The notes under the pieces are model-generated. The model did no database searches and was not told the DNA's origin. It was given only the letters and a program-made list of their open reading frames with translations. Of a stretch of 64,000 bases of DNA, positions 47,452 through 62,704 are shown in pieces (position 1 is the first letter of the stretch; each line of letters begins with the position of its first letter). A program made the translations under genes and the position numbers. The stretch covers positions 21,392 through 85,391 of the forward strand of contig CAYXTO010000013.1 in assembly GCA_964468045.1 (NCBI GenBank), read 5' to 3'. Source of the DNA: an uncultured Caenibius sp. (GTDB taxonomy: Bacteria; Pseudomonadota; Alphaproteobacteria; Sphingomonadales; Sphingomonadaceae).

Positions 47452-47453
47452 GA

Positions 47454-48560: not shown

Positions 48561-48621
48561 GATGCACCCCCCTGCGTTGCCGGCTCAGTCATGTTCATGG
48601 CCAACCTTCCTGAAAAACACC

Positions 48622-49740: not shown

Positions 49741-52140
49741 ATGGCGAAGCTCGCATCACGGTCTCTTGCAACCATACTGCTCATCATCGGCCTGATGGTC
49801 GGATTGGGCGGAGCCTGGCTCATCGTGCTGGGGGGCTCGCCCTATTATCTTCTCGGCGGCATGGCCGTGGCGCTGTCCGGGTTCTGGCTGTGGCGCTCCA
49901 ACTCCCGCGCCGGCTGGCTCTATGCGGCCTTCCTGATCGTCACCGCCTTGTGGGCGCTGTGGGAAGTCGGCCTCGATGGCTGGCAGCTGACCGCACGCAT
50001 CATCGGTCCGGCCCTGTTCGGTCTGTTCTTCGCGCTGCCCGGTGTGAGGAAGCAGATCGGCAAGAGCGGATGGGCCGCTGCCGCTGCCGGCCTGCTGGGT
50101 TTCCTGGTGGTGTTCGGCGCGGCCCTGCGCTCCCCGATGGAAGTGGCCGCGGACAAGGCACCCCAGGTGCGCACGGCGCAGACGCTCGGTAACGACAACG
50201 AATGGAGCGCCTGGGCCCGCGACAATGCCGGATCGCATTTCTCCCCCCTGAGCCAGATCACCCCGGCCAATGTCGACAAGCTCGAACTCGCCTGGGAATT
50301 CGACACCGGCTACGACCCGATGACCGATGCCGCGCCCAGTCCGCTCCAGGCGACTCCGCTGATGGTGGATGGCCGGCTTTACCTCTGCACGCAGACCAAC
50401 GTCGTCTTCGCGCTCGATCCGGAAACCGGCAAGGAACTCTGGCGCTTCGATCCCAAGGTCGACCCGACCGGCGGCACCGCCGTGCGTACCTGCCGCGGCG
50501 TGACCTATTATGAAAGCCAGGCAACGGCGCCCGCCCAAGGTGCTGGTGCTGCTGGTACGGCGCCTGCCGCCGTGCCCTTCTGTGCTCGCCGGATCATCAC
50601 CGGCACCTTCGGCGCGCAGCTGATCGCGCTCGACAGCGCCACCGGCAAGCCCTGCCCGGGCTTCGGCGAAAACGGCATCGTCGACCTCAAGGAAGGCATG
50701 GGCGAAGTGCTGCCGGGCTATTATCATATCTCTTCGGCCCCCACGATCGTGCGCGGTACGATCGTCGTTGGCGGCTGGGTGGCCGATAATCTGAGCGCCA
50801 ATCAGCCGTCCGGCGTCATCCGCGGCTTCGATGCGGAAACCGGCCGGCTGCGCTGGGCATGGGACGCCGGCAATCCGGCCAACCGGAACGGCCCGCCGCC
50901 GGGACAATGGTATACCCGCTCGACTCCCAACAGCTGGGCCCCGATGAGCGCGGACGAGGAACTGGGCCTCGTCTATGTGCCTACCGGCAATCCCGCGCCG
51001 GACTATTTCGGCGGCTACAGGTCGCAGGCGAGCGAGACGTACGGCAGCGCGGTCGTCGCGCTGGATGCGCAGACGGGGGAGCCGAAATGGCATTTCCAGA
51101 CCGCGCACCATGATCTTTGGGATTATGACGTCGCATCCCAGCCCACGCTGTTCAACTTCCCCGGCAAGAACGGGCCGATCCCGGCCCTGGCCCAGGCGAC
51201 CAAGCGCGGCGAATTGTTCGTGCTGGATCGCCGGACCGGCACACCGCTGACCCAGGTCGTCGAGAAGCCTGCGCCGCAAAGAGGCAAGGTGCCGGACGAT
51301 CGCCTCTCCCCGACCCAGCCGTTCTCCACCGGGATGCCCAGCTTCGCCGGGGATCGCCTGACCGAAAAGGACATGTGGGGCATCACTCCGATCGACCAGC
51401 TGTTCTGCCGGATCTGGTTCAAGCGGCTGCGGTATGACGGGCCGGTGACTCCTCCGGGGCTGGACGAGGCGATCGTCTATCCCAGCATCGGCGGCGGCAT
51501 GAACTGGGGCGGCGTGGCGTTCGATCCGGATCGCCGGATCATGATCATCAATTCACTCTATTATGCAACGCTGCTGTCGCTTATTCCGCGGGTAGAAGCC
51601 GACCGGCAGATCGAAGCGGCAGGCAAGGCGGGCGACAGCCACGATCTGGCGCTGGCCGCCGCACCGCTGCCGATGGCCGGGACGCCCTATGGCGCTCGGG
51701 TGCGGGGTTTCACGACACCGCTCAACACGCTGTGCCACGCGCCGCCCTATGGCCGGATGACGGCGGTCGACATGGATACGCAGAAGATCCTCTGGCAACG
51801 TCCGGTAGGCACCGTCCAGGATAGCGGCCCGCTCGGCCTCAAGGTCGGCCTGCCGATCCGCATGGGCATGCCGGGCTTCGGCGGATCTCTGGTTACACGC
51901 AGCGGCCTGACGTTCTTCGGCGCCCAGAAGGAGCAAGCCTTCCGCGCCTTCGACACCGCGACCGGAAAGGAACTCTGGTCCACCCGGATGCCGGCATCCG
52001 GCAATGCGAATCCGATGACCTATAGCGGCCCCAGGAGCGGGCGCCAGTTCGTCGTGATTGCCGCCAGCGGTCACGTCACCTCCCAATCCTTGCCTCTGGG
52101 CCGGACTTTCCGCGCTTATGCCCTTCCGGAGAAAAAATGA
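49741..52140 (+). CDS. Membrane-bound PQQ-dependent dehydrogenase (glucose/quinate/shikimate dehydrogenase family)
   Basis: ATG at 49741 after GGAGGGAGAAG. The N-terminal 5-TM anchor (GGSPYYLLGGMAVALSGFWLW...LWALWEVGLDGWQL) is typical of Gcd/QuiA. It is followed by the PQQ beta-propeller (repeated W-motifs, DLWDYD). Confidence 0.9.
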   Translation: MAKLASRSLATILLIIGLMVGLGGAWLIVLGGSPYYLLGGMAVALSGFWLWRSNSRAGWLYAAFLIVTALWALWEVGLDGWQLTARIIGPALFGLFFALPGVRKQIGKSGWAAAAAGLLGFLVVFGAALRSPMEVAADKAPQVRTAQTLGNDNEWSAWARDNAGSHFSPLSQITPANVDKLELAWEFDTGYDPMTDAAPSPLQATPLMVDGRLYLCTQTNVVFALDPETGKELWRFDPKVDPTGGTAVRTCRGVTYYESQATAPAQGAGAAGTAPAAVPFCARRIITGTFGAQLIALDSATGKPCPGFGENGIVDLKEGMGEVLPGYYHISSAPTIVRGTIVVGGWVADNLSANQPSGVIRGFDAETGRLRWAWDAGNPANRNGPPPGQWYTRSTPNSWAPMSADEELGLVYVPTGNPAPDYFGGYRSQASETYGSAVVALDAQTGEPKWHFQTAHHDLWDYDVASQPTLFNFPGKNGPIPALAQATKRGELFVLDRRTGTPLTQVVEKPAPQRGKVPDDRLSPTQPFSTGMPSFAGDRLTEKDMWGITPIDQLFCRIWFKRLRYDGPVTPPGLDEAIVYPSIGGGMNWGGVAFDPDRRIMIINSLYYATLLSLIPRVEADRQIEAAGKAGDSHDLALAAAPLPMAGTPYGARVRGFTTPLNTLCHAPPYGRMTAVDMDTQKILWQRPVGTVQDSGPLGLKVGLPIRMGMPGFGGSLVTRSGLTFFGAQKEQAFRAFDTATGKELWSTRMPASGNANPMTYSGPRSGRQFVVIAASGHVTSQSLPLGRTFRAYALPEKK

Positions 52141-52625
52141 TGGCCAGCCTTGCAGTCAGCCCGTTCAGCCCGCCCGAACTGCTCGAGAAAGCGAGCAGTG
52201 ACGATGCGCGGGAGTGGGTTCCAGCGGCCATGGACGGCGTGTGGATGCGTCCTTTGCTGTTCGATACCGTTGCTGGCGCATGGGTGAATGTCACGCGGCT
52301 GGAACGGGAAGGCTTCATCAGCCGCCATGCGCATCCCTGCCCGGTCCACGCCTATGTGCTGTCCGGCCAATGGCGCTATGCGGAAAGGGACTGGATCGCA
52401 ACCGCAGGCAGCTACCTGCTCGAACCGCCGGGCGACATCCACACGCTGATGGGATTACCAGGCGGGTCGGAAACGCTTTTCTGGATTGGCGGAACGTTGG
52501 TCGAACTCGACGAAAACGGCAATACGACCGGCTATGCCGATGTGTTCACCCGCATCGAACAGGCTGCAAAGCACTTCGAAAAGGTCGGGCTTGGCCGCGA
52601 TTACGTGAAGCGTTTCATTCGCTGA
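52137..52625 (+). CDS. Cupin, 2,4'-dihydroxyacetophenone dioxygenase (DAD)-like family
   Basis: ATGA overlap with the PQQ dehydrogenase gene. RHAHPCPVHAYVLSGQWRYAERDWIATAGSYLLEPPGDIHTL is the His-rich cupin pattern I associate with DAD-family proteins. Confidence 0.75.
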   Translation: MMASLAVSPFSPPELLEKASSDDAREWVPAAMDGVWMRPLLFDTVAGAWVNVTRLEREGFISRHAHPCPVHAYVLSGQWRYAERDWIATAGSYLLEPPGDIHTLMGLPGGSETLFWIGGTLVELDENGNTTGYADVFTRIEQAAKHFEKVGLGRDYVKRFIR

Positions 52626-52647: not shown

Positions 52648-52682
52648 AAAAAAGCCGCGCCCGTCAGGACGCGGCTTTTTTT
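52648..52682. terminator. Bidirectional rho-independent terminator
   Basis: AAAAAAGCCGCG (52648-52659) pairs with CGCGGCTTTTTT (52670-52681), flanked by an A-tract and a T-tract. Lies between the convergent cupin and BVMO genes. Confidence 0.7.
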
Positions 52683-52700: not shown

Positions 52701-54359
52701 TCAGGCGTCGACCAAGGCCCCCTGACGCATCACGAAGCCTTCGTAACCGTTGGCTTTCACCTCCGCCACCTTCGCGCGGTAGGCGGGATTGCCGCCATTA
52801 TACACCAGCAGGCGATGGCCCCGCTTAGCGCCTTCGCCGAACTCGCCCCAGAACCAGCTGTTGGTGGCGGTGGTGAGCAAGGTCTGGTTGGCGACATCAT
52901 AGACATGCTGCGTCCATTCCTCCGCGGCGCTCTCTTCCGTTTCGATCCGTTCCACCCCATTGTCCTTCATGTACTGGAACAGGTCCGCGACCCATTCCAC
53001 CTGGGCTTCGGAACAGCGCGGGATATTGCAGAACGTGGCACCGTTGTGCGCACCGACCAATGTGAAGAGATTCGGAAATTCGGGAATCTGGAGGCCAAGA
53101 TAGGTGAAGGGGCCGTTGAACCAGGCTTCCTTCATCGTTTTTCCACCGATCCCGCGAATATCCATCTGCTTGATGCCGCCGATGATGGCATCGAAGCCGG
53201 TGGCATAGATGATCATGTCGAGATCGTACTTGGCATGCTCCGTTTCGATGCCTTCGGGCGTCATGCGCTGGATCGGATCTTCGTGAATATCCACCAGATG
53301 GACGTTCGGCTGGTTGTAGGCCTCGTAATACTTGGTTTCCATCGGCACGCGCTTCAGGCCGAAGCCGTGGTCCTTGGGAATCAGCTTTTCCGCGACCTTC
53401 GGATCCTTCACCCGCTCGCGAATCTTCTTGGCGATGAAATCGGTGATGTAGCCATTCACCTTGGGATCGGTGAACATGTCCGCATAATGGCCGACCCAGA
53501 TGGCGTAGCCTGACTGGTTGTAAAGCTCTTCGAACAGAGCCTCACGCTCCTCATGCGTCGTACCTTCGGCCGTTTCGTACATGAAATCGTGCTGGAAGCC
53601 GGAATTGGTGTTTCCGCACTTCTCGAAGATCTTCGGATAGTTCGCCTTGATCTCGGCCATGCGCTCCGGCTCGATCGGCTTGTCGCACAGCGGCGCGCAC
53701 CAATTGGGATGGCGCTGAAAGACATAGAGCTCGCCGGCCGTCTTGGCCACTTCCTGGATGACCTGAACCCCGGTTGCGCCGGTGCCGATCACACCCACGC
53801 GCTTGCCCGCGAAATCGACCTTCTGCCCGCCATAGCCATCGCGCTCATGCGGCCAGTAATAGGTGTGATAGGTCTCGCCCCGGAACAGGTCCATGCCCGG
53901 ATAGTTGGGCATATTCGGATGAGAGAGCGCCCCGACGCAAGTCAGCAGGAAGCGGGACTTGTACACCTCCGCATTGTCCAGCTCGACCGACCAGCTGTTT
54001 TCCTCATTGTTGAAGATGGCCTTCTTGATCTGCGTATTGAACGTGATGTCCTTGCGCACATCCATCTTGTCCGCCGCCTTGCTGAAGAACTCGTTGAGTT
54101 CCGGCTGGGTGGCGAATTCGGTCTTCCAGTCCCATTCCTGCAGCAGCTCGGGCAGGAACGAATAGGGATAGGTGTAGGATTCCGAATCCAGCTTGCAGCC
54201 CGGATAGCGGTTCATCGTCCAGGTGCCGCCCACATCCCCGTTCTTCTCGAACGCATGGACTGAATAGCCCATCTTCCGCAGACGATAGAGCGTATACATC
54301 CCGGTGATGCCAGCACCGATGATGATGACATCGAAATCCAGATCAGACCTTTGTGCCAT
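52701..54359 (-). CDS. Type I Baeyer-Villiger monooxygenase (FAD/NADPH, cyclohexanone-monooxygenase-like)
   Basis: GAGITG FAD motif, GGTW, BVMO fingerprint FRGETYHTYYWP (FxGxxxHxxxWP), second Rossmann motif GTGATG. 552 aa. Confidence 0.92.
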   Translation of the reverse strand: MAQRSDLDFDVIIIGAGITGMYTLYRLRKMGYSVHAFEKNGDVGGTWTMNRYPGCKLDSESYTYPYSFLPELLQEWDWKTEFATQPELNEFFSKAADKMDVRKDITFNTQIKKAIFNNEENSWSVELDNAEVYKSRFLLTCVGALSHPNMPNYPGMDLFRGETYHTYYWPHERDGYGGQKVDFAGKRVGVIGTGATGVQVIQEVAKTAGELYVFQRHPNWCAPLCDKPIEPERMAEIKANYPKIFEKCGNTNSGFQHDFMYETAEGTTHEEREALFEELYNQSGYAIWVGHYADMFTDPKVNGYITDFIAKKIRERVKDPKVAEKLIPKDHGFGLKRVPMETKYYEAYNQPNVHLVDIHEDPIQRMTPEGIETEHAKYDLDMIIYATGFDAIIGGIKQMDIRGIGGKTMKEAWFNGPFTYLGLQIPEFPNLFTLVGAHNGATFCNIPRCSEAQVEWVADLFQYMKDNGVERIETEESAAEEWTQHVYDVANQTLLTTATNSWFWGEFGEGAKRGHRLLVYNGGNPAYRAKVAEVKANGYEGFVMRQGALVDA

Positions 54360-54413
54360 AAGGCATCTCCCAATTCAGCAGCTGTGCCGATTCCGGCTAA
54401 GCTCCGGGATATT

Positions 54414-54476
54414 CTAGCGCCTTGACCTTGATCAAGAAAGCGAATCTTTCTCGGCTTTTGATCAAGGCCTCGCTAG
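54414..54476. repeat. Nested inverted-repeat element containing two TTGATCAA palindromes
   Basis: CTAGCG (54414-54419) / CGCTAG (54471-54476). CCTTGATCAA (54426-54435) / TTGATCAAGG (54458-54467). GAAAG / CTTTC around 54436-54450. Lies between the EthD stop and the BVMO start. Confidence 0.5.
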
Positions 54477-55261
54477 AGCGCCCACTCGCGCTCAACGTAG
54501 GGATACTCCTTCCCGGAAAACAGGAACGACTGCCCCAGCTCTATGAAATTGCGCTCGTCCTGAGCCGCCGTCAACCTGGCCTGTTCCACATCGGCGCCGC
54601 CGGGAACACGCGAGCGGTCGAACCACGCCTCGGCATGCCCGATAAACCGCCCCACTCCGAAGCCGAGCGCCGACGCGACCTGCCCGGTCAGCGGATAATC
54701 GCGGCGATGGACCTGATAATAGCAGGTGGTGCCCCGCGCGACGGCATGGGAGCGGACCAGCGGGCCATGCTCGGTCAGCCAATAGCTTTGGGCCTCGGCA
54801 TCGGTCATGCCGGCGCGCGGCATCAGCGGAAAGGCGAGCTTCAGCAGCGGCGTGCGCGGCCGCGCGGCGACACGCCCGGGAGCGGAGGAAACCTGCGGAA
54901 ATTCGTGCGCCAGCCAGCACAGCGATCCGGCCGCGTCGATAATTCCCTCGCCCGCCTGGCGGACCAGAGCGAGCGCAGAAGCGCCCCCAGAAGAGCCACA
55001 GAGCGACTCAAGCGCATCATGGGATGGCCACCAGAAGTCCGCCATCGCCTCGAACGGGCTGATCAGGCTGCCGCGCAACTCCGTTGCGATGCGATCGCCT
55101 TCCGCTGCATCGGGGTCGGCATGGAACTGGACGTAGCGGATCAGCCCGAGCTTCGCCTGCAAGCCCGCGACGGCGGGCCCGACCACATCCCGTAAGCCGG
55201 CGAAGAACGCCTCGGGAGCCAGCGCCGCATCGCGTTTCAGAAGACAGACCAGCCTTATCAT
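54473..55261 (-). CDS. Tandem EthD-domain protein (two dimeric alpha/beta-barrel modules)
   Basis: MIRLVCLLKRDAALAPEAFFAGL... and a second module LLKLAFPLMPRAGMTDAEAQSYWLTEHGPLV... both fit the EthD N-terminal pattern (beta-strand, K/R-R, helix with F/Y-W). Confidence 0.75.
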   Translation of the reverse strand: MIRLVCLLKRDAALAPEAFFAGLRDVVGPAVAGLQAKLGLIRYVQFHADPDAAEGDRIATELRGSLISPFEAMADFWWPSHDALESLCGSSGGASALALVRQAGEGIIDAAGSLCWLAHEFPQVSSAPGRVAARPRTPLLKLAFPLMPRAGMTDAEAQSYWLTEHGPLVRSHAVARGTTCYYQVHRRDYPLTGQVASALGFGVGRFIGHAEAWFDRSRVPGGADVEQARLTAAQDERNFIELGQSFLFSGKEYPYVEREWAL

Positions 55262-55303
55262 TCCTACATCCCCTCCGCACGATCGAGGATAGCCCCGATC
55301 GCC

Positions 55304-55804
55304 TCAGATCACCGTTTCGAGCGGCGGCAGCTTGTCGCGGTCAGGATCGATCCCGTTGCCCTTGAACCACACCCGGCTGCGCAGCGCATCCTTCTCGCCA
55401 TAAGCGAGAATTACATCCCAGGCACCGCGTGGCAATGGCTTGCGGCCTTCATCGCCGAGGATGACCCGGTCGATCGCATGGCCGAGCGTGCAGATGCCCC
55501 CATTGAGCGCATCGATATCGTACAGGTCGAGATCCGCCACCTGACCGAGCGCGGCGCGCAGACCGGCGGCCTGCTCATCATCCACCTCGGGCGCGAGCGC
55601 TTCGGCCAACTCGCGGATCATCCGGAAGGAACCGGCTTCGTAGCGCACGGCGTGCTTCCATTGATCCTTGAGCATGGCGAGATGGCCGACGATCAGGCGC
55701 ACCTGCTCCTGCGCCAGTTTCTGGTCATCCGGAATGGCGGGAGCGACCACTTCCTGCATCGCCTTCATCATGTTCCTGAAGCGGACATCGACACTGGGCA
55801 GCAT
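55304..55804 (-). CDS. Hypothetical protein (166 aa, probably all-helical), translationally coupled to the kinase gene
   Basis: ATG at 55802-55804 overlaps the kinase stop (ATGA), with AGGAGGA 7 nt upstream. No recognisable motif. Confidence 0.65.
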   Translation of the reverse strand: MLPSVDVRFRNMMKAMQEVVAPAIPDDQKLAQEQVRLIVGHLAMLKDQWKHAVRYEAGSFRMIRELAEALAPEVDDEQAAGLRAALGQVADLDLYDIDALNGGICTLGHAIDRVILGDEGRKPLPRGAWDVILAYGEKDALRSRVWFKGNGIDPDRDKLPPLETVI

Positions 55805-56997
55805 CAGATTTCCTCCTTGAGCATCTTGGTGATCTGTTCGAGGAAAACCGCGCCCGCCGAGCCGAGCCAGGTCATCACGTTTTCCTGATGATTGGTGTGC
55901 CCTTCGGCGACGCGCATCGCCTGGCCGAGATCCATCACCGCGCATTTGTAGGCGTTCAGCATCTCATACCAGCGCAACTTGACCGGATCGATCACATTGC
56001 CCGACAGCTGCTGATATTTTTCCAGAAACTCTTCGCGCGGGAGAAAGCCGGAAACGAGGAACTGCCCGTTGTCGTCGAGATAGCCGAACAGGCGCTGGAT
56101 GGTCCAGGCGATGTCCTCATGATAATCGCCCAGATGGCCCAGCTCCCAGTCGAGCACGGCCGTGAATTGCCCGCTCGGCTCCTCGAACATGAAATTGCCG
56201 ATGCGCAGGTCGCCGTGCACCACCCCGACCTTGTCGCAAACCGGGATGTTCTCCCGCAGCCAGCGTTCGCACAGGGTAATGATCGGCACGGGCTCGACTA
56301 TCGCGTTCCAGTAAAGGCCGGACCAGAAGTTCAGCTCCCACAACGCGGCATCCGTGGTGCCCGCCCTCGGCCTGGCGAAGAGCGAGAGATCCTTCGAACG
56401 CCAGTCCAGCCCATGGGTCTTGACGAATGCATCGACGAACTGGGGCGTAAGCTTGGGCGCGATGTCGTCGAAGCGGGTGCCCATGCCCGACACGCCCTTG
56501 GCCCCGCCGCTGGTGGGCTCGGTCACCCCGGAAACGAATTCCAGGATGGAGCCCGCCTGATCCAGTATGTCGGCATCGACATCGACGTGGCGGATCGTGG
56601 CGACCGGCAAGGTGCCGATCATCGCGTTCTGCAATTGCGCCTCGCGACCGCGGCAGGATTGGGAAATCCCTTCCGGCGGATCCATCCGCAGGACGAGCTT
56701 CTCGCCGCCCGGCCTGTCGGCATGGGCCACATCGAAAATGAACTGCTCCTTGGAAGCCCCGCCGGACATGCGGCGCACGTTCGCGATGGTGGCGTCCTTG
56801 TAGCCGAGATGATCGAAATAGCGCTTGAGCATCGCCGCGATCTCGTCACTCGTGCGGGCGCGATAAGGCCCCTTCCGCCGATAGGCGAGCGTGCGCTCCA
56901 GAACCCATTTCTGCCGGGGGTCCATCGCATCGCGATCCCATGGATCGGCAAAGGTCTTATCGTCCCCTTCGCGGACTTCCTCTTCAAGCATCTGCAT
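55804..56997 (-). CDS. APH-fold phosphotransferase (aminoglycoside phosphotransferase / ACAD10-11 N-terminal kinase-like family)
   Basis: SGGASKEQFIFDV nucleotide-lobe block, catalytic loop VVHGDLRIGNFMFEE (HGD-x4-N), and VLDWELGHLGDYHEDIAW (DWE motif). Confidence 0.85.
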   Translation of the reverse strand: MQMLEEEVREGDDKTFADPWDRDAMDPRQKWVLERTLAYRRKGPYRARTSDEIAAMLKRYFDHLGYKDATIANVRRMSGGASKEQFIFDVAHADRPGGEKLVLRMDPPEGISQSCRGREAQLQNAMIGTLPVATIRHVDVDADILDQAGSILEFVSGVTEPTSGGAKGVSGMGTRFDDIAPKLTPQFVDAFVKTHGLDWRSKDLSLFARPRAGTTDAALWELNFWSGLYWNAIVEPVPIITLCERWLRENIPVCDKVGVVHGDLRIGNFMFEEPSGQFTAVLDWELGHLGDYHEDIAWTIQRLFGYLDDNGQFLVSGFLPREEFLEKYQQLSGNVIDPVKLRWYEMLNAYKCAVMDLGQAMRVAEGHTNHQENVMTWLGSAGAVFLEQITKMLKEEI

Positions 56998-57042
56998 CTC
57001 CTTGGTGCCGGTCTACCCAGCCGGCCTGAACCTCGAGTGAAA

Positions 57043-57981
57043 CTAGTTTCCGTTGCCGCGCCACGGGAAATTGAAGCCGCCTTCGCCCATGCCATAGCCG
57101 AGCGTGCCGTCCGCGAGCCGGAACTCCATCATCTGCTCGACCATCATGAAAGTGTCGAACGGATAGTGCCAATGGAACATCGGCTTGCCTGTGAACTCCC
57201 ACAGGCGGCCGGTTTCATCCCATATCTTCCAATGGCCCGATTTGAAGCGGACGCCGTCTTCGTAATATTCGATTTCCTCTTCCATACGGTCGATCGCCAT
57301 CCAGCGCGTGCCATCATGCAGGATTTTCTGATAGCTGTGCCCGTGGTCGGTGATGCCGTGGACGGCGACGCAGGCCATGCCATTGTCGAAGATCGGCCAG
57401 ACGAGGCGATAATGGTGAAGCCCGGACCAGTTGCGCGGCCCCGCGCTGATATCGCGCCAGCCCGTGGTATCGATCGCCACGGTTTCGCCATTCTTCAGCT
57501 TGAGCGTACCCTTGACCGAGCACACGCCCTCGGGGTGGTAGAAACTCAGCTCGCGCCCGATCGCGTCATCGTCGCTCTTCTCGTCCTTGCCGACATGGAT
57601 GCTGTCGCAAAGCTCGAACAGCTGATCCCACAAGAGATCCGCCGAGAAATCCTCATGCGCGATGGTGACCCTGCAGCTCTGGAGGGGTTTCTCGACCTTG
57701 AAGGTAATCCCGGCCAGGGTGACGCCCGGATCGGGCCGATCCTCGGTATAGGGGAGGTTCATGTTGCTGCGCAGGAACAGCGGCTTTCCATCGCGGAAGA
57801 AGATCGCCCAGCAATTGCTTTCACCGAGGTTCTCCAGAAACCCCATCCGGATGAAGGCGCCGCAGCCCGTGTGGCGGTCATAGAAATTGAAGAAGTAGCT
57901 CTGGTTCCATTTGCGGATGTCCGGATTGCGGATCAGCTTCTCGCAATCCCGCTGCAGGGCATCCAGAGTCAGCTCGGTCAT
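57043..57981 (-). CDS. Conserved hypothetical protein, unnamed family A, copy 3 of 3
   Basis: Start at MTELTLDALQ (ATG 57979-57981) with GGGAGAG upstream. WNQSYFFNFYDRH and VCSVKGTLKLKNGETVAIDTTGWRDISAGPRNW align with the other two copies. Confidence 0.75.
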   Translation of the reverse strand: MTELTLDALQRDCEKLIRNPDIRKWNQSYFFNFYDRHTGCGAFIRMGFLENLGESNCWAIFFRDGKPLFLRSNMNLPYTEDRPDPGVTLAGITFKVEKPLQSCRVTIAHEDFSADLLWDQLFELCDSIHVGKDEKSDDDAIGRELSFYHPEGVCSVKGTLKLKNGETVAIDTTGWRDISAGPRNWSGLHHYRLVWPIFDNGMACVAVHGITDHGHSYQKILHDGTRWMAIDRMEEEIEYYEDGVRFKSGHWKIWDETGRLWEFTGKPMFHWHYPFDTFMMVEQMMEFRLADGTLGYGMGEGGFNFPWRGNGN

Positions 57982-58069
57982 GTTTCTCTCCCGTATTTGC
58001 GTTGCCCCATACGCAAAAGAGCCCCGGCCGTAAAGCCGGAGCCCCCATTGCAACCGATTTTTGTTCGGA

Positions 58070-60529
58070 TCAGTTGAACTTGAAGCCGAAGGTCACGCCA
58101 TAGGTGGCCGGCATGCCCGCGAAGCGAGCGGCCGAGTCAGCCGAGGAGATCACGTTGGTCCAGTAGTAGGTGTTGAAGATGTTCTTGCCCCAGACCATGA
58201 CCTTCCAGGCGCCTTCCGGAGCCTCGTAGCCCAGGCGGGCGTCAACCGTGGTCCAGCCCTTGAGAGCGAACGGGTTGGTCACGCCAGCCGGCAGGAAGCA
58301 GACCGGATCGCCGGAGGTATCGACCTGGCAACCCTCTAGATACCTCATCCTGCGAGCACCCGGCTGCGAGTCGGACTTGGTCCGCGCGCTGAGGGTGACA
58401 CCGAAGAACGGCGAACCGCCATTTTCGAGTTCCTTGCGGTAATCGAGGTTGACCGTGCCCGACCATTCCGGCGTGAACGGCAGGTCATCACCTGCGAAGT
58501 CGTCCGCAACACCCAGCACGTTGTAGTTGTACGGAGCCGCCGGGCTCTCCTTGATCTTGGAGTTCAGGTAGGTCACCGCGCCGCTCAGGGTCAGACCATC
58601 GGTCGGACGAACGGTCAGTTCGGCTTCCGCACCCCAGATGCGGGACTTGGGAATGTTGACCAGGGTTTCCAGGCCACCGAAGATCGCGTCAAGCAAGCGA
58701 CCACGGATCTGCTTGTCCTTGTAGTCCATGTAGAAGCCGGCCGCATTGAACTGGACCGCACGGTTGGCCAGCGAAGCCTTGAAACCGCCTTCAAAGGCCG
58801 TCACCGATTCCTGCGTCACCGGCTCGAGCGCAACGAACAAAGCTGCCGCCAAGGTCGGGAAGGAACCTGCCTTGTAGCCACGTGACACGTTGGCATAGAC
58901 CAGCACGTCCGGATTGACCTTGTAGTCAACGCCGACACGCCAGGAGACATTGTCTTCCTTCAAATTGCCACGGAACACTTCACCCGGCACGCCATCATAG
59001 TTGAGCGTGTAGCAGCCTTCCGGTGGGATCGGCGTGAACGGGTTACCGCTGATACCGCCCAGCACGTTGAAGAACTTGTTCACGTTGCCGTTGGGGGAAG
59101 TGTAGGAACACATCGCGTTCTTGTTCGAAGTGTCGGTGTAACGCGCAGCGGCTTTCAAGGTCAGCTGCTCGGTCACGTCGAATTCGAGGTTACCGAACAC
59201 GGCGATGTTCTCGATCTTCTGGAGATTCCGCGCGCCCGAATAGTTGATGTAGAACAGGCTGGAATCGTGGCTGGTGTTGTCGAAATAACGCAGGCCCTGA
59301 TCGTCCAGGGTCTTGCTCTTTTCGTAGTTGGCGCCAAGCAGCCAGCGGATCTGCGAAACCGGATCATTGGCCAGGCGGAGTTCCTGGTTGAAGGTCTTGA
59401 TGAAACCGTCGTTCTTCTCAAGATCGTAGGTGACATAGGCCATGCCGTCGCCATCCACGCCCTGGTTCTGCTTGTAATGCGCGTAGGAGGTCAGCGAGGT
59501 CAGGGTCAGCGAACCGAGCTCGATATCGGCCCGCATCGCCGCCTGCCACATCCGGCGATTGGAATAGGGGTCAAGATTGGTCTGGCCCCACTTCGCACGC
59601 TCGACCGGATCCAGCTGGCCCGCGTAACCTACATCGTTGGACGCCACGGTGCCCGGATCGGAAACGAGCGTCGACCAATCGGCGATACGCGGATTGCCGA
59701 ACGACCACAGCGCGCCCGGATTGCGATAGAAATCATGCAGGATTTCGCGTTCCGCGCTCCAGTTCTGGACGCGGATACCGACCAGCTGCTGCGCCTGCGG
59801 CTGCGACTTGTCGCGCCAGGCGTTGACGTTGAACGACAGCTTGACGGTTTCGCTGGCATCCACATCGAGCAGCATGCGGCCGGCGACATAGGACTGGCCG
59901 CCGTTGGTGTCGCGGCGAGTCGCGCTGTACTGCCAATCGTCGCCGTTCAGGCCGGTCACGGCCACACGGCCACGCACGCCTTCGGCCAGCGGGCCGCTGA
60001 TGAAGGCATTGCCTTCGATCGTGTTGAAGCGGCCGTAGCTGATGTCACCGCCGGCCTCGAAGGTTTCGGTCGGCTTGTTGGCGATGTAGTTGATCGCGCC
60101 GCCGGTGGAGTTCTGGCCGAACAGGGTGCCCTGCGGACCCTTCAGCGCTTCGATGCGCTGCAGGTCGTAAGCGGCGTGCGAGGCAAGCGCCGGGAACGGC
60201 ATCGGGATCTGGTCGAGATAGACGGAAACGGCCGGATAGACGCCCAGCGAGCTTTCGTTGAAGCCGACGCCACGCAGCGTCAGGATCGGCGTACCGGTGT
60301 TCGACGGCGCGAAGGCGAGGCCCGGAACCACCGAAGCAACGTCGGAAAGCGACGTCAGCTTGCGTTCCTGCAGAGCCGCACCGGAAATGGCGGTGATGGT
60401 CAGACCGACGTCGTTGAGGTTTTCCTCACGCTTGTTGGCCGTAACGACGATTTCGCCTGCATCCTGGGCGATAGCTACGCCAGGCACCATGATCATGGCA
60501 GTTGCGAGTAGATAATTGCGGAAATGCAT
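58070..60529 (-). CDS. TonB-dependent outer-membrane receptor
   Basis: Start at MHFRNYLLATAMIMVPGVAIAQ (signal peptide) with GGGAGGA upstream. Plug domain IVVTANKREENLNDV...RIEALKGPQGTLFGQNSTGGAINY. Long beta-barrel ending in an aromatic-rich YGVTFGFKFN. Confidence 0.92.
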   Translation of the reverse strand: MHFRNYLLATAMIMVPGVAIAQDAGEIVVTANKREENLNDVGLTITAISGAALQERKLTSLSDVASVVPGLAFAPSNTGTPILTLRGVGFNESSLGVYPAVSVYLDQIPMPFPALASHAAYDLQRIEALKGPQGTLFGQNSTGGAINYIANKPTETFEAGGDISYGRFNTIEGNAFISGPLAEGVRGRVAVTGLNGDDWQYSATRRDTNGGQSYVAGRMLLDVDASETVKLSFNVNAWRDKSQPQAQQLVGIRVQNWSAEREILHDFYRNPGALWSFGNPRIADWSTLVSDPGTVASNDVGYAGQLDPVERAKWGQTNLDPYSNRRMWQAAMRADIELGSLTLTSLTSYAHYKQNQGVDGDGMAYVTYDLEKNDGFIKTFNQELRLANDPVSQIRWLLGANYEKSKTLDDQGLRYFDNTSHDSSLFYINYSGARNLQKIENIAVFGNLEFDVTEQLTLKAAARYTDTSNKNAMCSYTSPNGNVNKFFNVLGGISGNPFTPIPPEGCYTLNYDGVPGEVFRGNLKEDNVSWRVGVDYKVNPDVLVYANVSRGYKAGSFPTLAAALFVALEPVTQESVTAFEGGFKASLANRAVQFNAAGFYMDYKDKQIRGRLLDAIFGGLETLVNIPKSRIWGAEAELTVRPTDGLTLSGAVTYLNSKIKESPAAPYNYNVLGVADDFAGDDLPFTPEWSGTVNLDYRKELENGGSPFFGVTLSARTKSDSQPGARRMRYLEGCQVDTSGDPVCFLPAGVTNPFALKGWTTVDARLGYEAPEGAWKVMVWGKNIFNTYYWTNVISSADSAARFAGMPATYGVTFGFKFN

Positions 60530-60785: not shown

Positions 60786-61304
60786 TTAGAGAGTGACGCC
60801 TTCGGGCAGGTCGAGCGCGACCACCGGGATCTCCCGCTGGCAACGAGTCTGATATTCAGCCTGGGCCGGCTGCTCCTTGGTGATGAAATCCCAATAGGCC
60901 TTGCGCGCTTCGCCGGTGATCACGCGCGCGGTGGCTTCGGAGCCGTTGGCGCCGACCTGGATGCGGCACTGCGGGTTCGCCTGCAGGTTGAGGAACCATA
61001 CCGGCGGCTCTTCCGTGCCGCCGCGCGAGGCGACGATCAGGATATCGCCATTGAAGCGATAATATTGCAGCGCCGTGTTGCGCCATTCCCCGCTCTTGCG
61101 GCCGAGATGGTGCAGCAGCAGGCAGGAAACCGGGCCGCCCGGCGTGCCGATCGCGATCGGATCCCAGTAATGCGCCGCCTCCGGATCGGTGAGATATTGC
61201 TGCCGGTGCTTTTCCAGCTCTTCCTTCACCAGGTCCGGGAGAGCCTTGAACTCATCCTTCGCAAAATTTGCTGCGCGAACCTCATCCATCTTTCCAGACG
61301 ACAT
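60786..61304 (-). CDS. Deazaflavin-dependent nitroreductase (DDN / DUF385, split beta-barrel FDOR-A) family protein
   Basis: LLLHHLGRKSGEWRNTALQYYRFNGDILIVASRGGTEEPPVWFLNLQANPQCRIQVG matches the G-R-K-S-G...R...P-L...V-A-S-x-G-G...P-x-W-x-x-N-L-x-A-N-P pattern of the family. Confidence 0.8.
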   Translation of the reverse strand: MSSGKMDEVRAANFAKDEFKALPDLVKEELEKHRQQYLTDPEAAHYWDPIAIGTPGGPVSCLLLHHLGRKSGEWRNTALQYYRFNGDILIVASRGGTEEPPVWFLNLQANPQCRIQVGANGSEATARVITGEARKAYWDFITKEQPAQAEYQTRCQREIPVVALDLPEGVTL

Positions 61305-61494: not shown

Positions 61495-62691
61495 ATGCCG
61501 ACAGACATTCGCAGCAACCCAGACAAGGCCTGGATCGAAGCCGTTCGCGAGCGGTATGAGGTCGAACGGACGGTGGACCTCGCCCTCACCCGCAAGCTGG
61601 AGCGGCGCGGCGCGCAGACTTTCAGCATCGCCCAGCTCGATGAATTGACCCAGCGGCTGGAAGCCTTCCTGGCGAAGCGGCTCGAAGGACCTTTCGCGAT
61701 TCGCAACCTGCGCGCGCTGACGGGGGGCAATTCCAAGGAGCAGTTCTCCTTCGAGCTCGACTGGAATTGCAATGGCGAGGCCCGCAAGGGCGAAAAGATG
61801 GTGCTCCGCCGCGAGCAGGCCGAATCCATCGTGGAGGCCGACAAGCTGAGGGAATTCCAGCTGGTCAGGGTGGCCGCATCGATGATGCCGGTTCCTACCG
61901 CCTACTGGCTGGACGAAAGCGGGGATGAGCTGGGCCGCCCCGCGCTGATCTACAGCTTCGTGACCGGAGTGCAGAAGCCGACCAAGTCAACCAGCAAGGT
62001 CACTGGAATCGGGATCAATTTCGATGCCGATTACCGCGCCGCGCTCGGGCCGCAATTCATCGATTACCTCGCGCGGATCCATAATTTCGAGCCTGCCGGG
62101 CACGACCTGTCCGCCTTCGATATGCCGCAGGTCGGCACCACTCAGGATGTGGACTGGCAGATCAACTGGTGGGCCAGGGCCTGGTTCGAGGACCGGCTGG
62201 AAGAGGTCCCGCTCATGACTATGGCCGAGCGGTGGCTCCGGGCCAACCGCAAGCCCCTCGATCATGTGTCGCTGATCCACGGCGATTTCCGCACCGGCAA
62301 CTTCCTGTTCGACGAGGATACGCTCAAGATCACGGCGATACTCGATTGGGAAACCGGATATTTCGGCGATCGCCATGGCGATCTAGCGTGGGTCCTCAAT
62401 CCGGTCTTCATCACCCCATCCGAAACCGGCGAGCCGCTGTACACTTCGCTCTTCGCACGCGACAAGTTCCTGCGTGATTACGAGAAGGCGAGCGGCCTCA
62501 CGGTGGATGAGGAACGGCTGACCTATTATAATATATTCGCTTATTGGCGTTCGGTCGTGCTCACCCTGGGCGCCGGCCCGCGCGCGGCGGGGGCGCTCAA
62601 GACTCATCAGGACGTCGTGCTGAGCTGGTTCGCGGGGATTTCCTATCCTCTCATCGAGGCACTGCGCCGGGAACTGGACAAGGTCGTCTGA
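61495..62691 (+). CDS. APH-fold phosphotransferase, paralog of 55804-56997
   Basis: Start moved to MPTDIRSNPDK (ATG 61495). TGGNSKEQFSFEL, LIHGDFRTGNFLFDE, ILDWETGYFGDRHGDLAW align block for block with the other kinase. Confidence 0.85.
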   Translation: MPTDIRSNPDKAWIEAVRERYEVERTVDLALTRKLERRGAQTFSIAQLDELTQRLEAFLAKRLEGPFAIRNLRALTGGNSKEQFSFELDWNCNGEARKGEKMVLRREQAESIVEADKLREFQLVRVAASMMPVPTAYWLDESGDELGRPALIYSFVTGVQKPTKSTSKVTGIGINFDADYRAALGPQFIDYLARIHNFEPAGHDLSAFDMPQVGTTQDVDWQINWWARAWFEDRLEEVPLMTMAERWLRANRKPLDHVSLIHGDFRTGNFLFDEDTLKITAILDWETGYFGDRHGDLAWVLNPVFITPSETGEPLYTSLFARDKFLRDYEKASGLTVDEERLTYYNIFAYWRSVVLTLGAGPRAAGALKTHQDVVLSWFAGISYPLIEALRRELDKVV

Positions 62692-62704
62692 TCGGCAGTC
62701 CAGC

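What the first reader, a model, noticed from the sequence alone, without database searches (positions are those of the whole stretch)
52701..60529. Receptor - family A - APH kinase - small ORF - tandem EthD - BVMO: an operon that may link uptake and Baeyer-Villiger oxidation to phosphorylation-dependent removal of a hydroxyl group
Seen: six co-directional genes from the TonB-dependent receptor (start 60529) to the type I BVMO (stop 52701). Gaps are 88, 45, -1 (ATGA), 42 and 113 nt. A terminator lies only after the BVMO.

Established:
- BVMOs convert ketones into esters or lactones, whose hydrolysis yields hydroxy acids.
- In the Pseudomonas putida lva operon, the APH-fold kinase LvaA with the small protein LvaB phosphorylates 4-hydroxyvaleryl-CoA, and an ACAD-family protein then eliminates phosphate.
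- Mammalian ACAD10/ACAD11 use the same kinase-plus-ACAD logic for 4-hydroxy acids.
- EthD-domain proteins are accessory to oxygenases in ether-fuel degradation, with unknown mechanism.

Inference: hydroxyacyl-CoAs generated downstream of the BVMO and lactonases would be blocked for beta-oxidation when the hydroxyl reaches C4. They would be rescued by kinase-dependent phospho-elimination. Family A copy 3 and the EthD tandem are unexplained members that could perform the elimination or assist the BVMO. The combination with a dedicated outer-membrane receptor is not a described system, as far as I know.
Basis: partly seen in the sequence, partly recalled or inferred. Interest (0 to 1): 0.75.

Follow-up and report, generated by a model that had tools for sequence, protein, structure and literature searches.

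The report
Kinase-plus-lyase alcohol dehydration gene cassette
The six genes are real, but their conserved heart is a three-gene cassette (a relative of a phosphate-removing lyase, a small-molecule kinase and a small unknown helical protein) that most likely strips a hydroxyl group from an imported oily compound by phosphorylating it and then expelling phosphate. In this lineage the cassette sits next to a ring-opening oxygenase.

Summary
The six co-directional genes, their coordinates and their gaps are confirmed, with small corrections. "Family A" (DUF7065+DUF7064) is a homologue of 25-phosphosteroid lyase (25-PSL) of Sterolibacterium. 25-PSL is the best fold match (Foldseek E 1e-15) and the only significant PDB sequence-profile hit (E 6e-9). 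They share an R-D-x-S-x-G-x-R motif whose Asp is Asn in the phosphate/product crystal entry.

In 26 related APH-small gene pairs, drawn from 32 fetched loci plus the window, the kinase always sits immediately upstream of the small ORF. Family A is adjacent in 18, sometimes as a tandem-duplicated or transposon-flanked triad, and also in Rhodococcus. The tandem EthD gene follows in seven lineages and the EthD-BVMO pair in six. No acyl-CoA dehydrogenase is ever adjacent.

The Lva/ACAD10-11 route is not supported, and the Baeyer-Villiger link is lineage-specific. The substrate is unknown. I rate this a new variant of a known kind: a genetically linked kinase-lyase system with an extra, unannotated small partner, in aerobic bacteria.

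The parts
58070..60529 (-). TonB-dependent outer-membrane receptor (819 aa), first gene of the cluster
   Evidence: Plug 1.7e-12 and TonB_dep_Rec_b-barrel 7.5e-41. A Shine-Dalgarno sequence plus ATG lies at 60529, and a terminator-like site of the upstream gene at 60663-60680. Homologous receptors sit directly upstream of the kinase module in L001, L003, L006-L008, L027-L029.
58014..58045 (-). 12-bp GC-rich hairpin plus UUUU immediately after the receptor stop codon; terminator- or attenuator-like
   Evidence: RNA fold of 57995-58069(-): -32.2 kcal/mol, z -3.8, 0 of 200 shuffles as stable. Sequence read. The consensus scan did not list it.
57043..57981 (-). 'Family A' copy 3: DUF7065+DUF7064 protein (312 aa), homologue of 25-phosphosteroid lyase; proposed phosphate lyase
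   Evidence: Pfam DUF7064 4e-12 and DUF7065 1.6e-8. AF2 model pLDDT 95. Best PDB folds are the 25-PSL chains 9g4c/9fzn/9g2i, E 1e-15 to 1e-13, TMq 0.65-0.69. Family profile A7 hits 25-PSL chain A at E 6.3e-9, the only significant hit. D177, G181 and R183 of the RDxSxGxR motif are invariant.
55804..56997 (-). APH-fold small-molecule kinase (397 aa from 56997; more likely 395 aa from ATG 56991)
   Evidence: PF01636 3e-14. The G-rich loop GGxSK, HGDxRxGN and DWE motifs are invariant in 32 homologues. PDB sequence hits: 9o56 2e-15, 3dxp 2.5e-11, Rv3168 (3ats) 5e-9, ACAD11 9e-9. Scores against resistance-enzyme models are far below cut-off.
55304..55804 (-). Small ORF (166 aa), all-helical, translationally coupled to the kinase (TGATG overlap); obligate kinase partner of unknown fold family
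   Evidence: No Pfam, NCBIfam or PDB sequence hit. AF2 model is helical with five main helices, pLDDT 86. No PDB fold match with E<1. The family has 574 representatives at 50% identity; among the 150 listed, most are stand-alone proteins of about 155-190 aa. It sits immediately downstream of an APH gene in every related gene pair.
54473..55261 (-). Tandem EthD-domain protein (262 aa); accessory, function unknown
   Evidence: PF07110, two stretches, 4.8e-14. No PDB sequence hit. It directly follows the small ORF in the seven nearest lineages (window, L027, L022, L028, L008, L006/L007/L025, L001) and also on the short contig L023.
54424..54469 (-). Long palindrome (CCTTGATCAA ... TTGATCAAGG) in the 113-nt EthD-BVMO gap; possible operator or RNA structure
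   Evidence: Fold of 54360-54472(-): -42.7 kcal/mol, z -2.95. Function not tested.
52701..54359 (-). Type I Baeyer-Villiger monooxygenase (552 aa), closest to OTEMO of the camphor pathway
   Evidence: PDB 3uov (OTEMO) E 7e-179, then phenylacetone, steroid and cyclohexanone monooxygenases. Motifs GAGITG, FRGETYHTYYWP and GTGATG are in the translation.
52650..52679 (.). Bidirectional intrinsic terminator shared by the BVMO and the convergent cupin gene
   Evidence: AAAAAGCCGCGTC-CTGA-CGGGCGCGGCTTTTT read. Fold -33.3 kcal/mol, z -4.9.
60786..61304 (-). Context: F420H2_quin_red-like (split beta-barrel) gene upstream of the receptor; a recurrent neighbour of kinase-small-ORF pairs
   Evidence: PF04075 6.6e-31. 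Homologues lie next to the module in L002, L011, L012, L014, L021 and L028.
61546..63223 (+). Context: divergent second APH kinase (34% identical to the first) followed by a 4HBT hotdog thioesterase
   Evidence: tblastn. Pfam APH 6.5e-27 and 4HBT 1.9e-6. The same divergent arrangement occurs in L006, L008, L025 and L028.
49678..52625 (+). Context: PQQ-dependent dehydrogenase and Cupin_7 protein, convergent with the BVMO; syntenic in relatives
   Evidence: PQQ 9e-234 and Cupin_7 2e-18. The same pair follows the cluster in L001, L007, L008, L022, L027 and L028.

Best explanation
**The unit.** The functional unit is a three-gene cassette: family A (a DUF7065/DUF7064 protein homologous to 25-phosphosteroid lyase), an APH-fold kinase, and a 166-aa helical protein translationally coupled to the kinase.

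**Proposed mechanism.** The cassette performs an ATP-dependent dehydration in two steps.
1. The kinase, with the small protein as an obligate partner (substrate-binding, stabilising or bridging subunit), phosphorylates a hydroxyl group that cannot be removed by ordinary dehydrogenase or dehydratase chemistry, most plausibly a tertiary or hindered alcohol.
2. Family A eliminates phosphate to leave a C=C bond, as 25-HSK and 25-PSL do on the sterol side chain in Sterolibacterium denitrificans.

**Wiring in this lineage.** In this Novosphingobium/Caenibius-like lineage the cassette sits between a TonB-dependent receptor and a tandem EthD protein plus an OTEMO-like BVMO. The receptor would import a hydrophobic alicyclic, isoprenoid or steroid-like compound. 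The BVMO would open a ring ketone. The island around the cluster is full of CoA ligases, ChsE-like ACADs, hydratases and Ltp2/ChsH2-like aldolase genes.

**Shown.** Gene order and its conservation, domain identities, intact kinase motifs, homology of family A to 25-PSL including the motif Asp, and obligate kinase-small-ORF adjacency.

**Inferred.** The phosphorylation-elimination chemistry itself, the role of the small protein, the nature of the substrate (free alcohol or CoA ester), co-transcription, and any order of action relative to the BVMO. One attractive but untested link is that Baeyer-Villiger ring opening next to a substituted carbon creates exactly such non-oxidisable alcohols.
For: **Family A is related to 25-PSL.**
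- The confident family A model (pLDDT 95) best matches all five 25-PSL chains. Their E-values (1e-15 to 1e-13) are at least about 100-fold better than those of the next fold relatives: pericyclases, AttH, kievitone hydratase.
- A broadened family profile finds 25-PSL chain A as the only significant PDB sequence hit (E 6.3e-9; next hit 0.57). The alignment pairs family A R176-D177-x-S-x-G181-x-R183 with GSRDRSWGVRP.
- The entry with phosphate and product bound (9g4c) carries Asn at that Asp.
- D177, G181 and R183 are invariant even among 15-20%-identical paralogues.

**The kinase looks active.** Its catalytic motifs are invariant. Its nearest solved relatives are metabolite kinases of the ACAD11/Rv3168 group.

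**Gene linkage**.
- APH is immediately upstream of the small ORF in 26/26 pairs.
- Family A is adjacent in 18/26.
- The triad is tandemly duplicated in Sphingobium (L029).
- The triad stands alone between transposase and integrase genes in P. borbori (L030).
- The triad is present on a Rhodococcus ruber megaplasmid (L031) and on Sphingomonas pISP1 (L032).

**Precedents.**
- M. tuberculosis Rv3168 (APH) and Rv3169 form an operon repressed by Rv3167c (PMC5340868). The window's family A matches NCBIfam's Rv3169-family model at E 6e-11, below that model's cut-off.
- Kinase-then-lyase dehydration of a tertiary alcohol is established for 25-HSK/25-PSL (PMC8449060, PMC11061730).
Against: - No biochemical data exist for any member.
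- Identity to 25-PSL is only 16-18%, and the superfamily also contains hydratases and pericyclases.
- 25-PSL crystallised with two different chains (A and B), whereas only one family A gene is adjacent here.
- Recombinant 25-HSK was active when expressed without any partner protein (PMC8449060).
- Seven of the 26 kinase-small-ORF pairs have no family A gene in the fetched flank. These include the four closest clades, which carry a second receptor instead (L028, L008, L006/7/25, L001).
- Two family A paralogues in the window, and the pairs in L018/L019, have no kinase nearby. The family is therefore not restricted to phosphoester chemistry.
- I could not compare the kinase with the 25-HSK sequence.
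- A terminator-like hairpin separates the receptor gene from the cassette.
Confidence: 0.55

Rival explanations
1. Lva/ACAD10-11-type pathway. The kinase (with the small ORF acting like LvaB) phosphorylates a 4- or 5-hydroxyacyl-CoA produced downstream of the BVMO and a lactonase. One of the island's acyl-CoA dehydrogenases then eliminates phosphate to give an enoyl-CoA.
For: - The kinase is in the APH subgroup that includes the ACAD11 kinase domain and 3dxp.
- It has a small co-translated partner, as LvaA has LvaB (PMC6692424).
- The BVMO's best match, OTEMO, acts on a CoA ester (own knowledge).
- The window holds several CoA ligases and four ACADs.
Against: - No ACAD is adjacent to the kinase in the window (nearest about 12 kb away, in another transcription unit) or in any of 26 related pairs.
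- The nearest ACADs best match ChsE4/ChsE5 and Tcur3481/3483. ACAD11 is not among their 60 best PDB hits.
- None of the four window ACADs has a Y-E/D-G catalytic motif at the C-terminal position (a weak test).
- The small ORF is 166 aa, whereas LvaB is 12 kDa (PMC6692424).
- The conserved partner is instead a 25-PSL homologue.
Confidence: 0.12
2. Family A is a cofactor-free hydratase, isomerase or cyclase of the AttH/CrtC/kievitone-hydratase/pericyclase type. It acts on a C=C bond of the substrate independently of phosphate. The kinase and small ORF do something else, such as trapping or activating the imported compound or making a phospho-intermediate for another enzyme.
For: - The same fold search returns pericyclases (E 1e-11), AttH (1e-10) and kievitone hydratase (3e-9).
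- One source names a homologue 'hydroxyneurosporene synthase'.
- Family A paralogues occur without kinases (window copies 1 and 2; L018/L019).
Against: - The 25-PSL chains score better than the other fold relatives by at least about 100-fold.
- 25-PSL is the only significant sequence-profile hit; AttH scores E 0.57.
- The motif Asp that is altered in the 25-PSL product complex is invariant in family A.
- Tight, repeated and mobile linkage with the kinase (18/26 pairs, duplicated triad, transposon-flanked triad) argues for a shared intermediate.
Confidence: 0.18
3. The six genes are a juxtaposition of separate units (receptor; kinase cassette; EthD+BVMO) that do not act on one substrate. Alternatively, the kinase is a resistance or detoxification enzyme for an antibiotic-like compound.
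For: - A terminator-like hairpin follows the receptor, and a palindrome precedes the BVMO.
- The modules recombine freely between genomes.
- PF01636 includes resistance kinases.
Against: - The complete six-gene order, plus the downstream cupin/PQQ pair, is kept at 91-92% kinase identity in independent assemblies (L027, L022).
- Receptor-cassette adjacency recurs in distant taxa (Spongiibacter L003, Sphingobium L029).
- Scores against aminoglycoside and macrolide kinase models are far below cut-off (31 vs 205 bits; 17 vs 650 bits).
- The whole neighbourhood is catabolic.
Confidence: 0.1

Closest known systems
25-hydroxysteroid kinase (25-HSK) + 25-phosphosteroid lyase (25-PSL) of Sterolibacterium denitrificans: ATP-dependent dehydration of the tertiary C25 alcohol of sterols (PMC8449060; PMC11061730; PDB 9fzn, 9g2i, 9g4c)
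   Same: - A phosphotransferase-family kinase of about 40 kDa is paired in function with a lyase.
- The lyase has the two-lobed beta fold.
- Family A is a detectable homologue of 25-PSL chain A and keeps the RDxSxGxR motif.
- The logic is the same: phosphorylate, then eliminate phosphate to make an alkene.
   Different: - Here the kinase and lyase genes are adjacent and move together. In S. denitrificans no lyase candidate lay near the kinase gene (PMC8449060).
- A third, obligatory small helical protein is present here. Recombinant 25-HSK was active when expressed alone.
- Only one lyase gene is adjacent here, whereas 25-PSL has two different chains.
- The hosts are aerobic sphingomonads, gammaproteobacteria and actinobacteria, and the context is oxygenase-rich.
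- Identity to 25-PSL is only 16-18%.
- The substrate is unknown.
Levulinate lva operon (LvaA kinase, LvaB 12-kDa partner, LvaC ACAD) and mammalian ACAD10/ACAD11
   Same: - An APH-fold kinase with HxDxxxxN sits in the same broad subgroup (ACAD11 E 9e-9).
- The kinase works with a small partner protein.
- The hydroxyl is removed via a phosphoester.
   Different: - The eliminating enzyme there is an ACAD with special active-site residues, fused or adjacent to the kinase. Here no ACAD is linked and the linked protein is a 25-PSL homologue.
- The small ORF is 166 aa and its relation to LvaB is untested.
- Dependence on a CoA ester is unknown.
Mycobacterium tuberculosis Rv3168-Rv3169 operon (APH-fold kinase, structure 3ATS/3ATT, plus the Rv3169 protein), repressed by the TetR regulator Rv3167c (PMC5340868)
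   Same: - A kinase gene is paired with an Rv3169-type gene. The window kinase hits Rv3168 at 5e-9.
- Family A hits NCBIfam's Rv3169-family model at 6e-11.
   Different: - The score is below the Rv3169 subfamily cut-off (42 vs 150 bits), so family A is a relative and not a member.
- I did not check whether M. tuberculosis has a small-ORF partner.
- The function of the Mtb pair is also unknown.
OTEMO (2-oxo-delta3-4,5,5-trimethylcyclopentenylacetyl-CoA monooxygenase) and other type I BVMOs
   Same: The BVMO matches OTEMO over its full length at E 7e-179 and has all type I fingerprints.
   Different: - No camphor-pathway neighbours were identified.
- The substrate is unknown.
- Association with the kinase cassette is confined to the nearest relatives.

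Membership tests
25-HSK/25-PSL-type kinase-lyase dehydration system | Phosphotransferase (APH) family kinase with intact catalytic motifs | tested here: met
   PF01636 3e-14. GGxSK, HGDxRxGN and DWE are invariant in 32 homologues.
25-HSK/25-PSL-type kinase-lyase dehydration system | Lyase homologous to 25-PSL in fold and sequence | tested here: met
   Foldseek E 1e-15 to 1e-13, TMq 0.65-0.69 against 9g4c/9fzn/9g2i. Profile A7 vs PDB: 25-PSL chain A at E 6.3e-9 is the only significant hit. A narrower profile (A2) found nothing.
25-HSK/25-PSL-type kinase-lyase dehydration system | Conserved Asp of the RDxSxGxR motif (Asn in the phosphate/product complex 9g4c) | tested here: met
   D177 aligns with that Asp. 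It is invariant in 50 orthologues and in 20 divergent paralogues. That the Asp is catalytic is my inference from the D-to-N difference between the PDB entries.
25-HSK/25-PSL-type kinase-lyase dehydration system | Lyase built from two different paralogous chains (A and B) | tested here: inconclusive
   Only one family A gene is adjacent in the window; two distant paralogues lie elsewhere. Tandem or flanking pairs exist in L013, L018-L020 and L032.
25-HSK/25-PSL-type kinase-lyase dehydration system | Kinase orthologous to 25-HSK; activity on 25-hydroxysteroids | not testable with these tools
   The 25-HSK sequence could not be obtained. PDB entries 9fsg and 9o56 could not be identified from the literature.
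Lva / ACAD10-ACAD11 4-hydroxyacyl-CoA pathway | APH-fold kinase with the HxDxxxxN motif related to LvaA/ACAD11 | tested here: met
   HGDLRIGN is present. ACAD11 (8v3v) E 9e-9 and 3dxp 2.5e-11.
Lva / ACAD10-ACAD11 4-hydroxyacyl-CoA pathway | Kinase fused or adjacent to an LvaC/ACAD11-type acyl-CoA dehydrogenase that eliminates phosphate | tested here: not met
   0 of 26 related pairs have an adjacent ACAD. The window ACADs at 41311-43630 best match ChsE4/5-type enzymes, and ACAD11 is not in their top 60.
Lva / ACAD10-ACAD11 4-hydroxyacyl-CoA pathway | Small partner homologous to LvaB (12 kDa) | not tested
   No LvaB sequence was available. The small ORF is 166 aa, about 18 kDa. Its relatives are mostly about 155-190 aa.
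Aminoglycoside / macrolide resistance phosphotransferases | Score above the NCBIfam cut-off for a resistance kinase family | tested here: not met
   APH(3') 31 bits vs cut-off 205. Mph(F) 17 vs 650.
Type I Baeyer-Villiger monooxygenase | Two GxGxxG dinucleotide motifs and the FxGxxxHxxxWP fingerprint; full-length similarity to characterised BVMOs | tested here: met
   GAGITG, GTGATG and FRGETYHTYYWP. OTEMO 7e-179, PAMO 6e-146, CHMO 1e-129.
TonB-dependent receptor | N-terminal plug plus 22-strand barrel domains | tested here: met
   Plug 1.7e-12 and barrel 7.5e-41. No specific substrate subfamily reached its cut-off.
EthD family | EthD domain (PF07110), here in tandem | tested here: met
   Two stretches, 4.8e-14, 53.7 bits vs cut-off 22.
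AttH / CrtC / kievitone hydratase-type hydratases | Sequence-level membership in the hydratase families | tested here: not met
   Fold similarity only (AttH 1e-10, kievitone hydratase 3e-9). Profile vs AttH sequence gives E 0.57. No CrtC/AttH Pfam hit.

The most novel reading that the evidence does not exclude
The family A - APH - small ORF triad is a widespread, mobile, three-component ATP-dependent alcohol dehydratase of aerobic bacteria. It occurs in sphingomonads, marine gammaproteobacteria and Rhodococcus, and as the Rv3168-Rv3169 pair in M. tuberculosis. It removes tertiary or otherwise non-oxidisable hydroxyl groups from terpenoid- or steroid-like compounds. The unannotated small helical protein (574 clusters at 50% identity) is a new obligatory subunit that couples the kinase to the lyase. 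If so, two DUF families, an unnamed family and a long-unexplained Mtb operon would all gain a function.
Probability: 0.4. Interest if true: 0.75.

Novelty: new variant of a known kind. Interest (0 to 1): 0.62.

Why it matters
**Why it would matter.**
- ATP-dependent dehydration of alcohols through a phosphoester is known from only a few systems: the anaerobic sterol side-chain pathway, and the levulinate and ACAD10/11 pathways.
- This cluster suggests the kinase-plus-lyase version is much more common. It appears to be genetically packaged as a mobile three-gene cassette and used by aerobic degraders alongside oxygenases and a dedicated outer-membrane receptor.
- It gives a concrete, cheaply testable function to DUF7064/DUF7065, to an unannotated small-protein family, and by extension to the Rv3168-Rv3169 operon of M. 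tuberculosis.
- It points to a way bacteria could deal with tertiary alcohols, which ordinary dehydrogenases cannot oxidise. Examples are terpene alcohols, hydroxylated sterols and the products of Baeyer-Villiger ring opening.

Tried and rejected
- **Exact-sequence look-up of the window kinase.** Nothing on record. The window itself is not in that index under this product, although a 100%-identical small ORF exists on a 93-kb NCBI contig.
- **Narrow family A profile (A2, 50 orthologues) against PDB sequences.** Only noise. The link to 25-PSL appeared only after distant paralogues were added (A7).
- **Single-sequence PDB searches** for family A, the small ORF and EthD. Nothing was found.
- **Fold search of the small-ORF model.** No match with E<1, so its fold gives no functional lead.
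- **Wider small-ORF alignments (A4, A5) for a metagenome scan.** The scan with A1 gave only five loci and the genome scan 13, so the co-occurrence statistics rest on 26 gene pairs.
- **Literature.** I found no paper on the 25-PSL structures, on DUF7064/65, or on PDB entries 9fsg and 9o56. I therefore could not learn the published catalytic residues or whether 9fsg is 25-HSK.
- **LvaB homology.** Not tested, for lack of a sequence.
- **Sigma-70 promoter scan.** Nothing above chance.
- **ACAD catalytic-motif check.** Treated as weak evidence only.
- **Rejected: resistance kinase.** Scores were far below the NCBIfam cut-offs.
- **Rejected: BVMO as part of the conserved core.** It is absent from most related loci.

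Full report
**1. The observation**

Six minus-strand ORFs lie between 60529 and 52701. Pfam and NCBIfam confirm each label:
- TonB-dependent receptor, 58070-60529: Plug + barrel.
- 'Family A', 57043-57981: DUF7065 + DUF7064, with a weak match to NCBIfam's Rv3169 family.
- APH-fold kinase, 55804-56997.
- A small ORF with no family hit.
- Tandem EthD protein, 54473-55261.
- Type I BVMO, 52701-54359.

The stated gaps (88, 45, -1, 42, 113 nt) are reproduced. Three corrections follow from reading the DNA.
- The kinase stop and the small-ORF start overlap as TGATG, behind an AAGGAGGA Shine-Dalgarno sequence. The small ORF is therefore 55304-55804, 166 aa.
- The kinase probably starts at the second ATG, 56991 (395 aa, the length of its homologues).
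- The bidirectional terminator after the BVMO is real. In addition, a 12-bp GC-rich hairpin followed by UUUU sits right after the receptor stop (58018-58045, z -3.8), and a long palindrome fills the EthD-BVMO gap.

'One operon with a single terminator' is therefore not established by sequence.

It is a GC-rich (about 62%) catabolic island with many CoA ligases, hydratases, ACADs, SDRs and oxygenases. The closest relatives are Novosphingobium and Caenibius MAGs.

**2. What is conserved**

I collected 32 loci through homologues of the kinase, the small ORF and family A. I scored them with tblastn and HMMs. After removing duplicates and two very short contigs, there are 26 kinase-small-ORF pairs.

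| Feature | Count or loci |
|---|---|
| APH gene immediately upstream of the small ORF, usually overlapping | 26/26 |
| Family A adjacent (at most one small gene away) | 18/26 |
| Family A within 6 kb | one more (L020) |
| TonB-dependent receptor directly upstream | 8 |
| Tandem EthD directly downstream | 7 (nearest clades only) |
| BVMO after the EthD gene | 6 (nearest clades only) |
| ACAD adjacent | 0 |

Telling cases:
- L027 and L022 (kinase 91-92% identical) repeat the cluster (all six genes in L027; the L022 contig begins at family A) plus the downstream cupin/PQQ pair.
- L028, L008 and L006/L007/L025 carry a second receptor in place of family A.
- Sphingobium sp. KCTC 72723 (L029) has receptor-(family A-APH-small)x2.
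- Pseudomonas borbori (L030) has the bare triad between transposase and integrase genes.
- A Rhodococcus ruber megaplasmid (L031) and Sphingomonas pISP1 (L032) carry the triad too.

The conserved unit is therefore the triad. The receptor is a frequent addition. EthD and the BVMO are lineage-specific additions.

**3. What family A is**

An AlphaFold2 model built on 50 homologues is confident (pLDDT 95, pTM 0.92) and almost all beta. Foldseek against the PDB gives these matches:
- The top five are all chains of 25-phosphosteroid lyase: 9g4c with phosphate and desmost-1,4-diene-3-one, plus 9fzn and 9g2i. E is 1e-15 to 1e-13 and TMq 0.65-0.69.
- Fungal pericyclases follow at 1e-11, AttH at 1e-10 and kievitone hydratase at 3e-9.

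A profile of close orthologues found nothing in PDB sequences. A profile that included distant paralogues (A7) found 25-PSL chain A at E 6.3e-9 as the only significant hit, with AttH next at 0.57.

The alignment pairs family A's R176-D177-I-S-A-G181-P-R183 with 25-PSL's GSRDRSWGVRP, and the C-terminal DGxxGYGxxE motifs also align. The 9g4c chain, crystallised with phosphate and product, differs from 9fzn by Asn at that Asp. I infer that this residue is catalytically important. D177, G181 and R183 are invariant in 50 orthologues and in 20 sequences that reach down to 15-20% identity.

**4. The kinase and the small protein**

The kinase keeps the glycine-rich loop, HGDxRxGN and DWE in all 32 aligned homologues. 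Its nearest solved relatives are 9o56 (unidentified), 3dxp, Rv3168 and the ACAD11 kinase domain. Resistance-kinase models score far below their cut-offs. A second kinase in the window (61546-62688) is 34% identical and is followed by a hotdog thioesterase rather than a small ORF.

For the small protein:
- It is predicted to be helical, with five main helices (pLDDT 86).
- It has no structural relative in the PDB and no Pfam family.
- An exhaustive profile search finds 574 cluster representatives. Among the 150 listed, most are stand-alone proteins of about 155-190 aa matching from residue 1.
- Relatives sit behind APH genes even in Sterolibacteriaceae MAGs (L016, L017) and in Rhodococcus.

**5. 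Mechanism**

Established knowledge:
- In Sterolibacterium denitrificans the tertiary C25 alcohol of sterols is phosphorylated by a 40-kDa phosphotransferase-family kinase (25-HSK). A separate lyase then eliminates phosphate to give the delta-24 alkene. In 2021 the lyase gene was unknown and no candidate lay near the kinase gene (PMC8449060, PMC11061730).
- LvaA with LvaB, and the kinase domains of ACAD10/11, phosphorylate 4-hydroxyacyl-CoAs. An ACAD then eliminates phosphate (PMC6692424; bioRxiv 10.1101/2024.01.09.574893).

The data here fit the first scheme. The protein genetically welded to the kinase is a 25-PSL homologue, not an ACAD. I therefore propose that the triad is an ATP-dependent dehydratase:
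1. Kinase plus small partner make a phosphoester.
2. Family A expels phosphate.

The receptor implies an imported, probably hydrophobic, substrate. Several features of the island point to an alicyclic, isoprenoid or steroid-like compound:
- the OTEMO-like BVMO;
- the ChsE4/5-like ACAD pair;
- the thiolase-like pair with a ChsH2-type OB protein.

Whether the kinase sees a free alcohol or a CoA ester is open. A rationale for the BVMO link is that Baeyer-Villiger ring opening next to a substituted carbon yields alcohols that dehydrogenases cannot oxidise. This is inference only.

**6. Rivals**

- **Lva/ACAD10-11 reading.** It fails its key membership test: no linked ACAD, and the nearest ACADs are of another type. 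It keeps some probability because the kinase subgroup and the CoA-rich context are compatible.
- **Pure hydratase or pericyclase role for family A.** This is possible because the superfamily is functionally diverse and some paralogues lack kinases. Against it stand the specific sequence link to 25-PSL and the repeated, mobile linkage to the kinase.
- **Juxtaposition of unrelated units, or a resistance function.** This is unlikely given the synteny and the scores.

**7. Known versus new**

The chemistry would be a known kind. New features would be:
- the genetic packaging of kinase and lyase;
- the obligatory third protein;
- the occurrence in aerobes of several phyla and on mobile elements;
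- the coupling to a TonB-dependent receptor and, in one lineage, to EthD and a BVMO.

The M. tuberculosis Rv3168-Rv3169 operon (PMC5340868) looks like a relative of the same pair. I found no paper that mentions DUF7064/65 and none on the 25-PSL structures. Prior description in literature I could not reach cannot be excluded.

**8. Verdict**

- Novelty: new variant of a known kind.
- Interest: 0.62.
- Confidence in the kinase-lyase mechanism: 0.55.

Noticed in passing
window 61546-63223 (+): A second APH kinase (34% identical to the first) is followed by a 172-aa 4HBT hotdog thioesterase instead of a small helical ORF. The same divergent APH (with the 4HBT gene called in L028) lies upstream of the receptor in L006, L008, L025 and L028. 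This suggests a different, possibly acyl-CoA-linked, kinase system.
   Followed up: partly
window 2675-3658 (+) and 34289-35248 (+): Two further DUF7064/DUF7065 paralogues (15-17% identical to copy 3) have no kinase nearby. One sits next to a Zn-ADH, an enoyl-CoA hydratase and a CoA ligase. The other sits next to a luciferase-like monooxygenase and a CoA ligase. They keep the RDxSxGxR Asp column, yet they may use another leaving group or act as hydratases.
   Followed up: partly
window 41311-49625 (-): This operon resembles steroid side-chain beta-oxidation. It holds two ACADs that best match ChsE4/ChsE5 and Tcur3481/3483, two enoyl-CoA hydratases, a metallo-beta-lactamase-fold protein, a ChsH2-type OB-fold protein and a pair of thiolase-like (Ltp2-like) genes.
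   Followed up: partly
window 35367-38718 (-): Biotin carboxylase, a biotin carrier protein and a PYC_OADA-type carboxyltransferase lie together next to a CoA ligase and a Zn-ADH. This is an unassigned biotin-dependent carboxylase inside the catabolic island. A similar biotin carboxylase/carrier pair lies near the kinase module in Novosphingobium lentum (L002).
   Followed up: no
window 60786-61304 (-); L002, L011, L012, L014, L021, L028: An F420H2_quin_red-like (split beta-barrel) gene is a recurrent immediate neighbour of the kinase-small-ORF pair in proteobacteria, which are not expected to make F420. It is a possible fourth component or ligand-binding protein.
   Followed up: no
window 54424-54469: A near-perfect long palindrome (CCTTGATCAA ... 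TTGATCAAGG) lies in the EthD-BVMO intergenic gap. It may be an operator for separate control of the BVMO.
   Followed up: partly
L029 9072-14365; L030 588-3283; L031 4845-7528; L032 4882-7513: The family A-kinase-small triad is tandemly duplicated in Sphingobium sp. KCTC 72723. It is flanked by transposase and integrase genes in Pseudomonas borbori. It lies next to a P450 system on a Rhodococcus ruber megaplasmid and is present on the conjugative plasmid pISP1. In L029 and L032 it is followed by an MmgE/PrpD-family gene and a Zn-ADH, with a tyrosine-phosphatase-like gene nearby.
   Followed up: partly
L016 and L017 (Sterolibacteriaceae MAGs), 8789-10531: Kinase-small-ORF pairs also occur in relatives of Sterolibacterium. 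There they lie beside a soluble di-iron monooxygenase, a Rieske oxygenase, a FAD_binding_2 (KstD-like) protein and an aldehyde dehydrogenase. No family A gene was found within 10 kb.
   Followed up: partly
window 7244-9109 (-): A fatty-acid-desaturase-family domain is fused to FAD-binding and 2Fe-2S ferredoxin domains in one 621-aa ORF. This is a self-sufficient membrane di-iron oxygenase or desaturase.
   Followed up: no
window 49678-52625 (+): A PQQ-dependent dehydrogenase (820 aa) overlaps a Cupin_7 (ChrR-like) gene by 4 nt. The pair is convergent with the BVMO, and it stays next to the cluster in six related loci even where the BVMO is missing (L001).
   Followed up: partly
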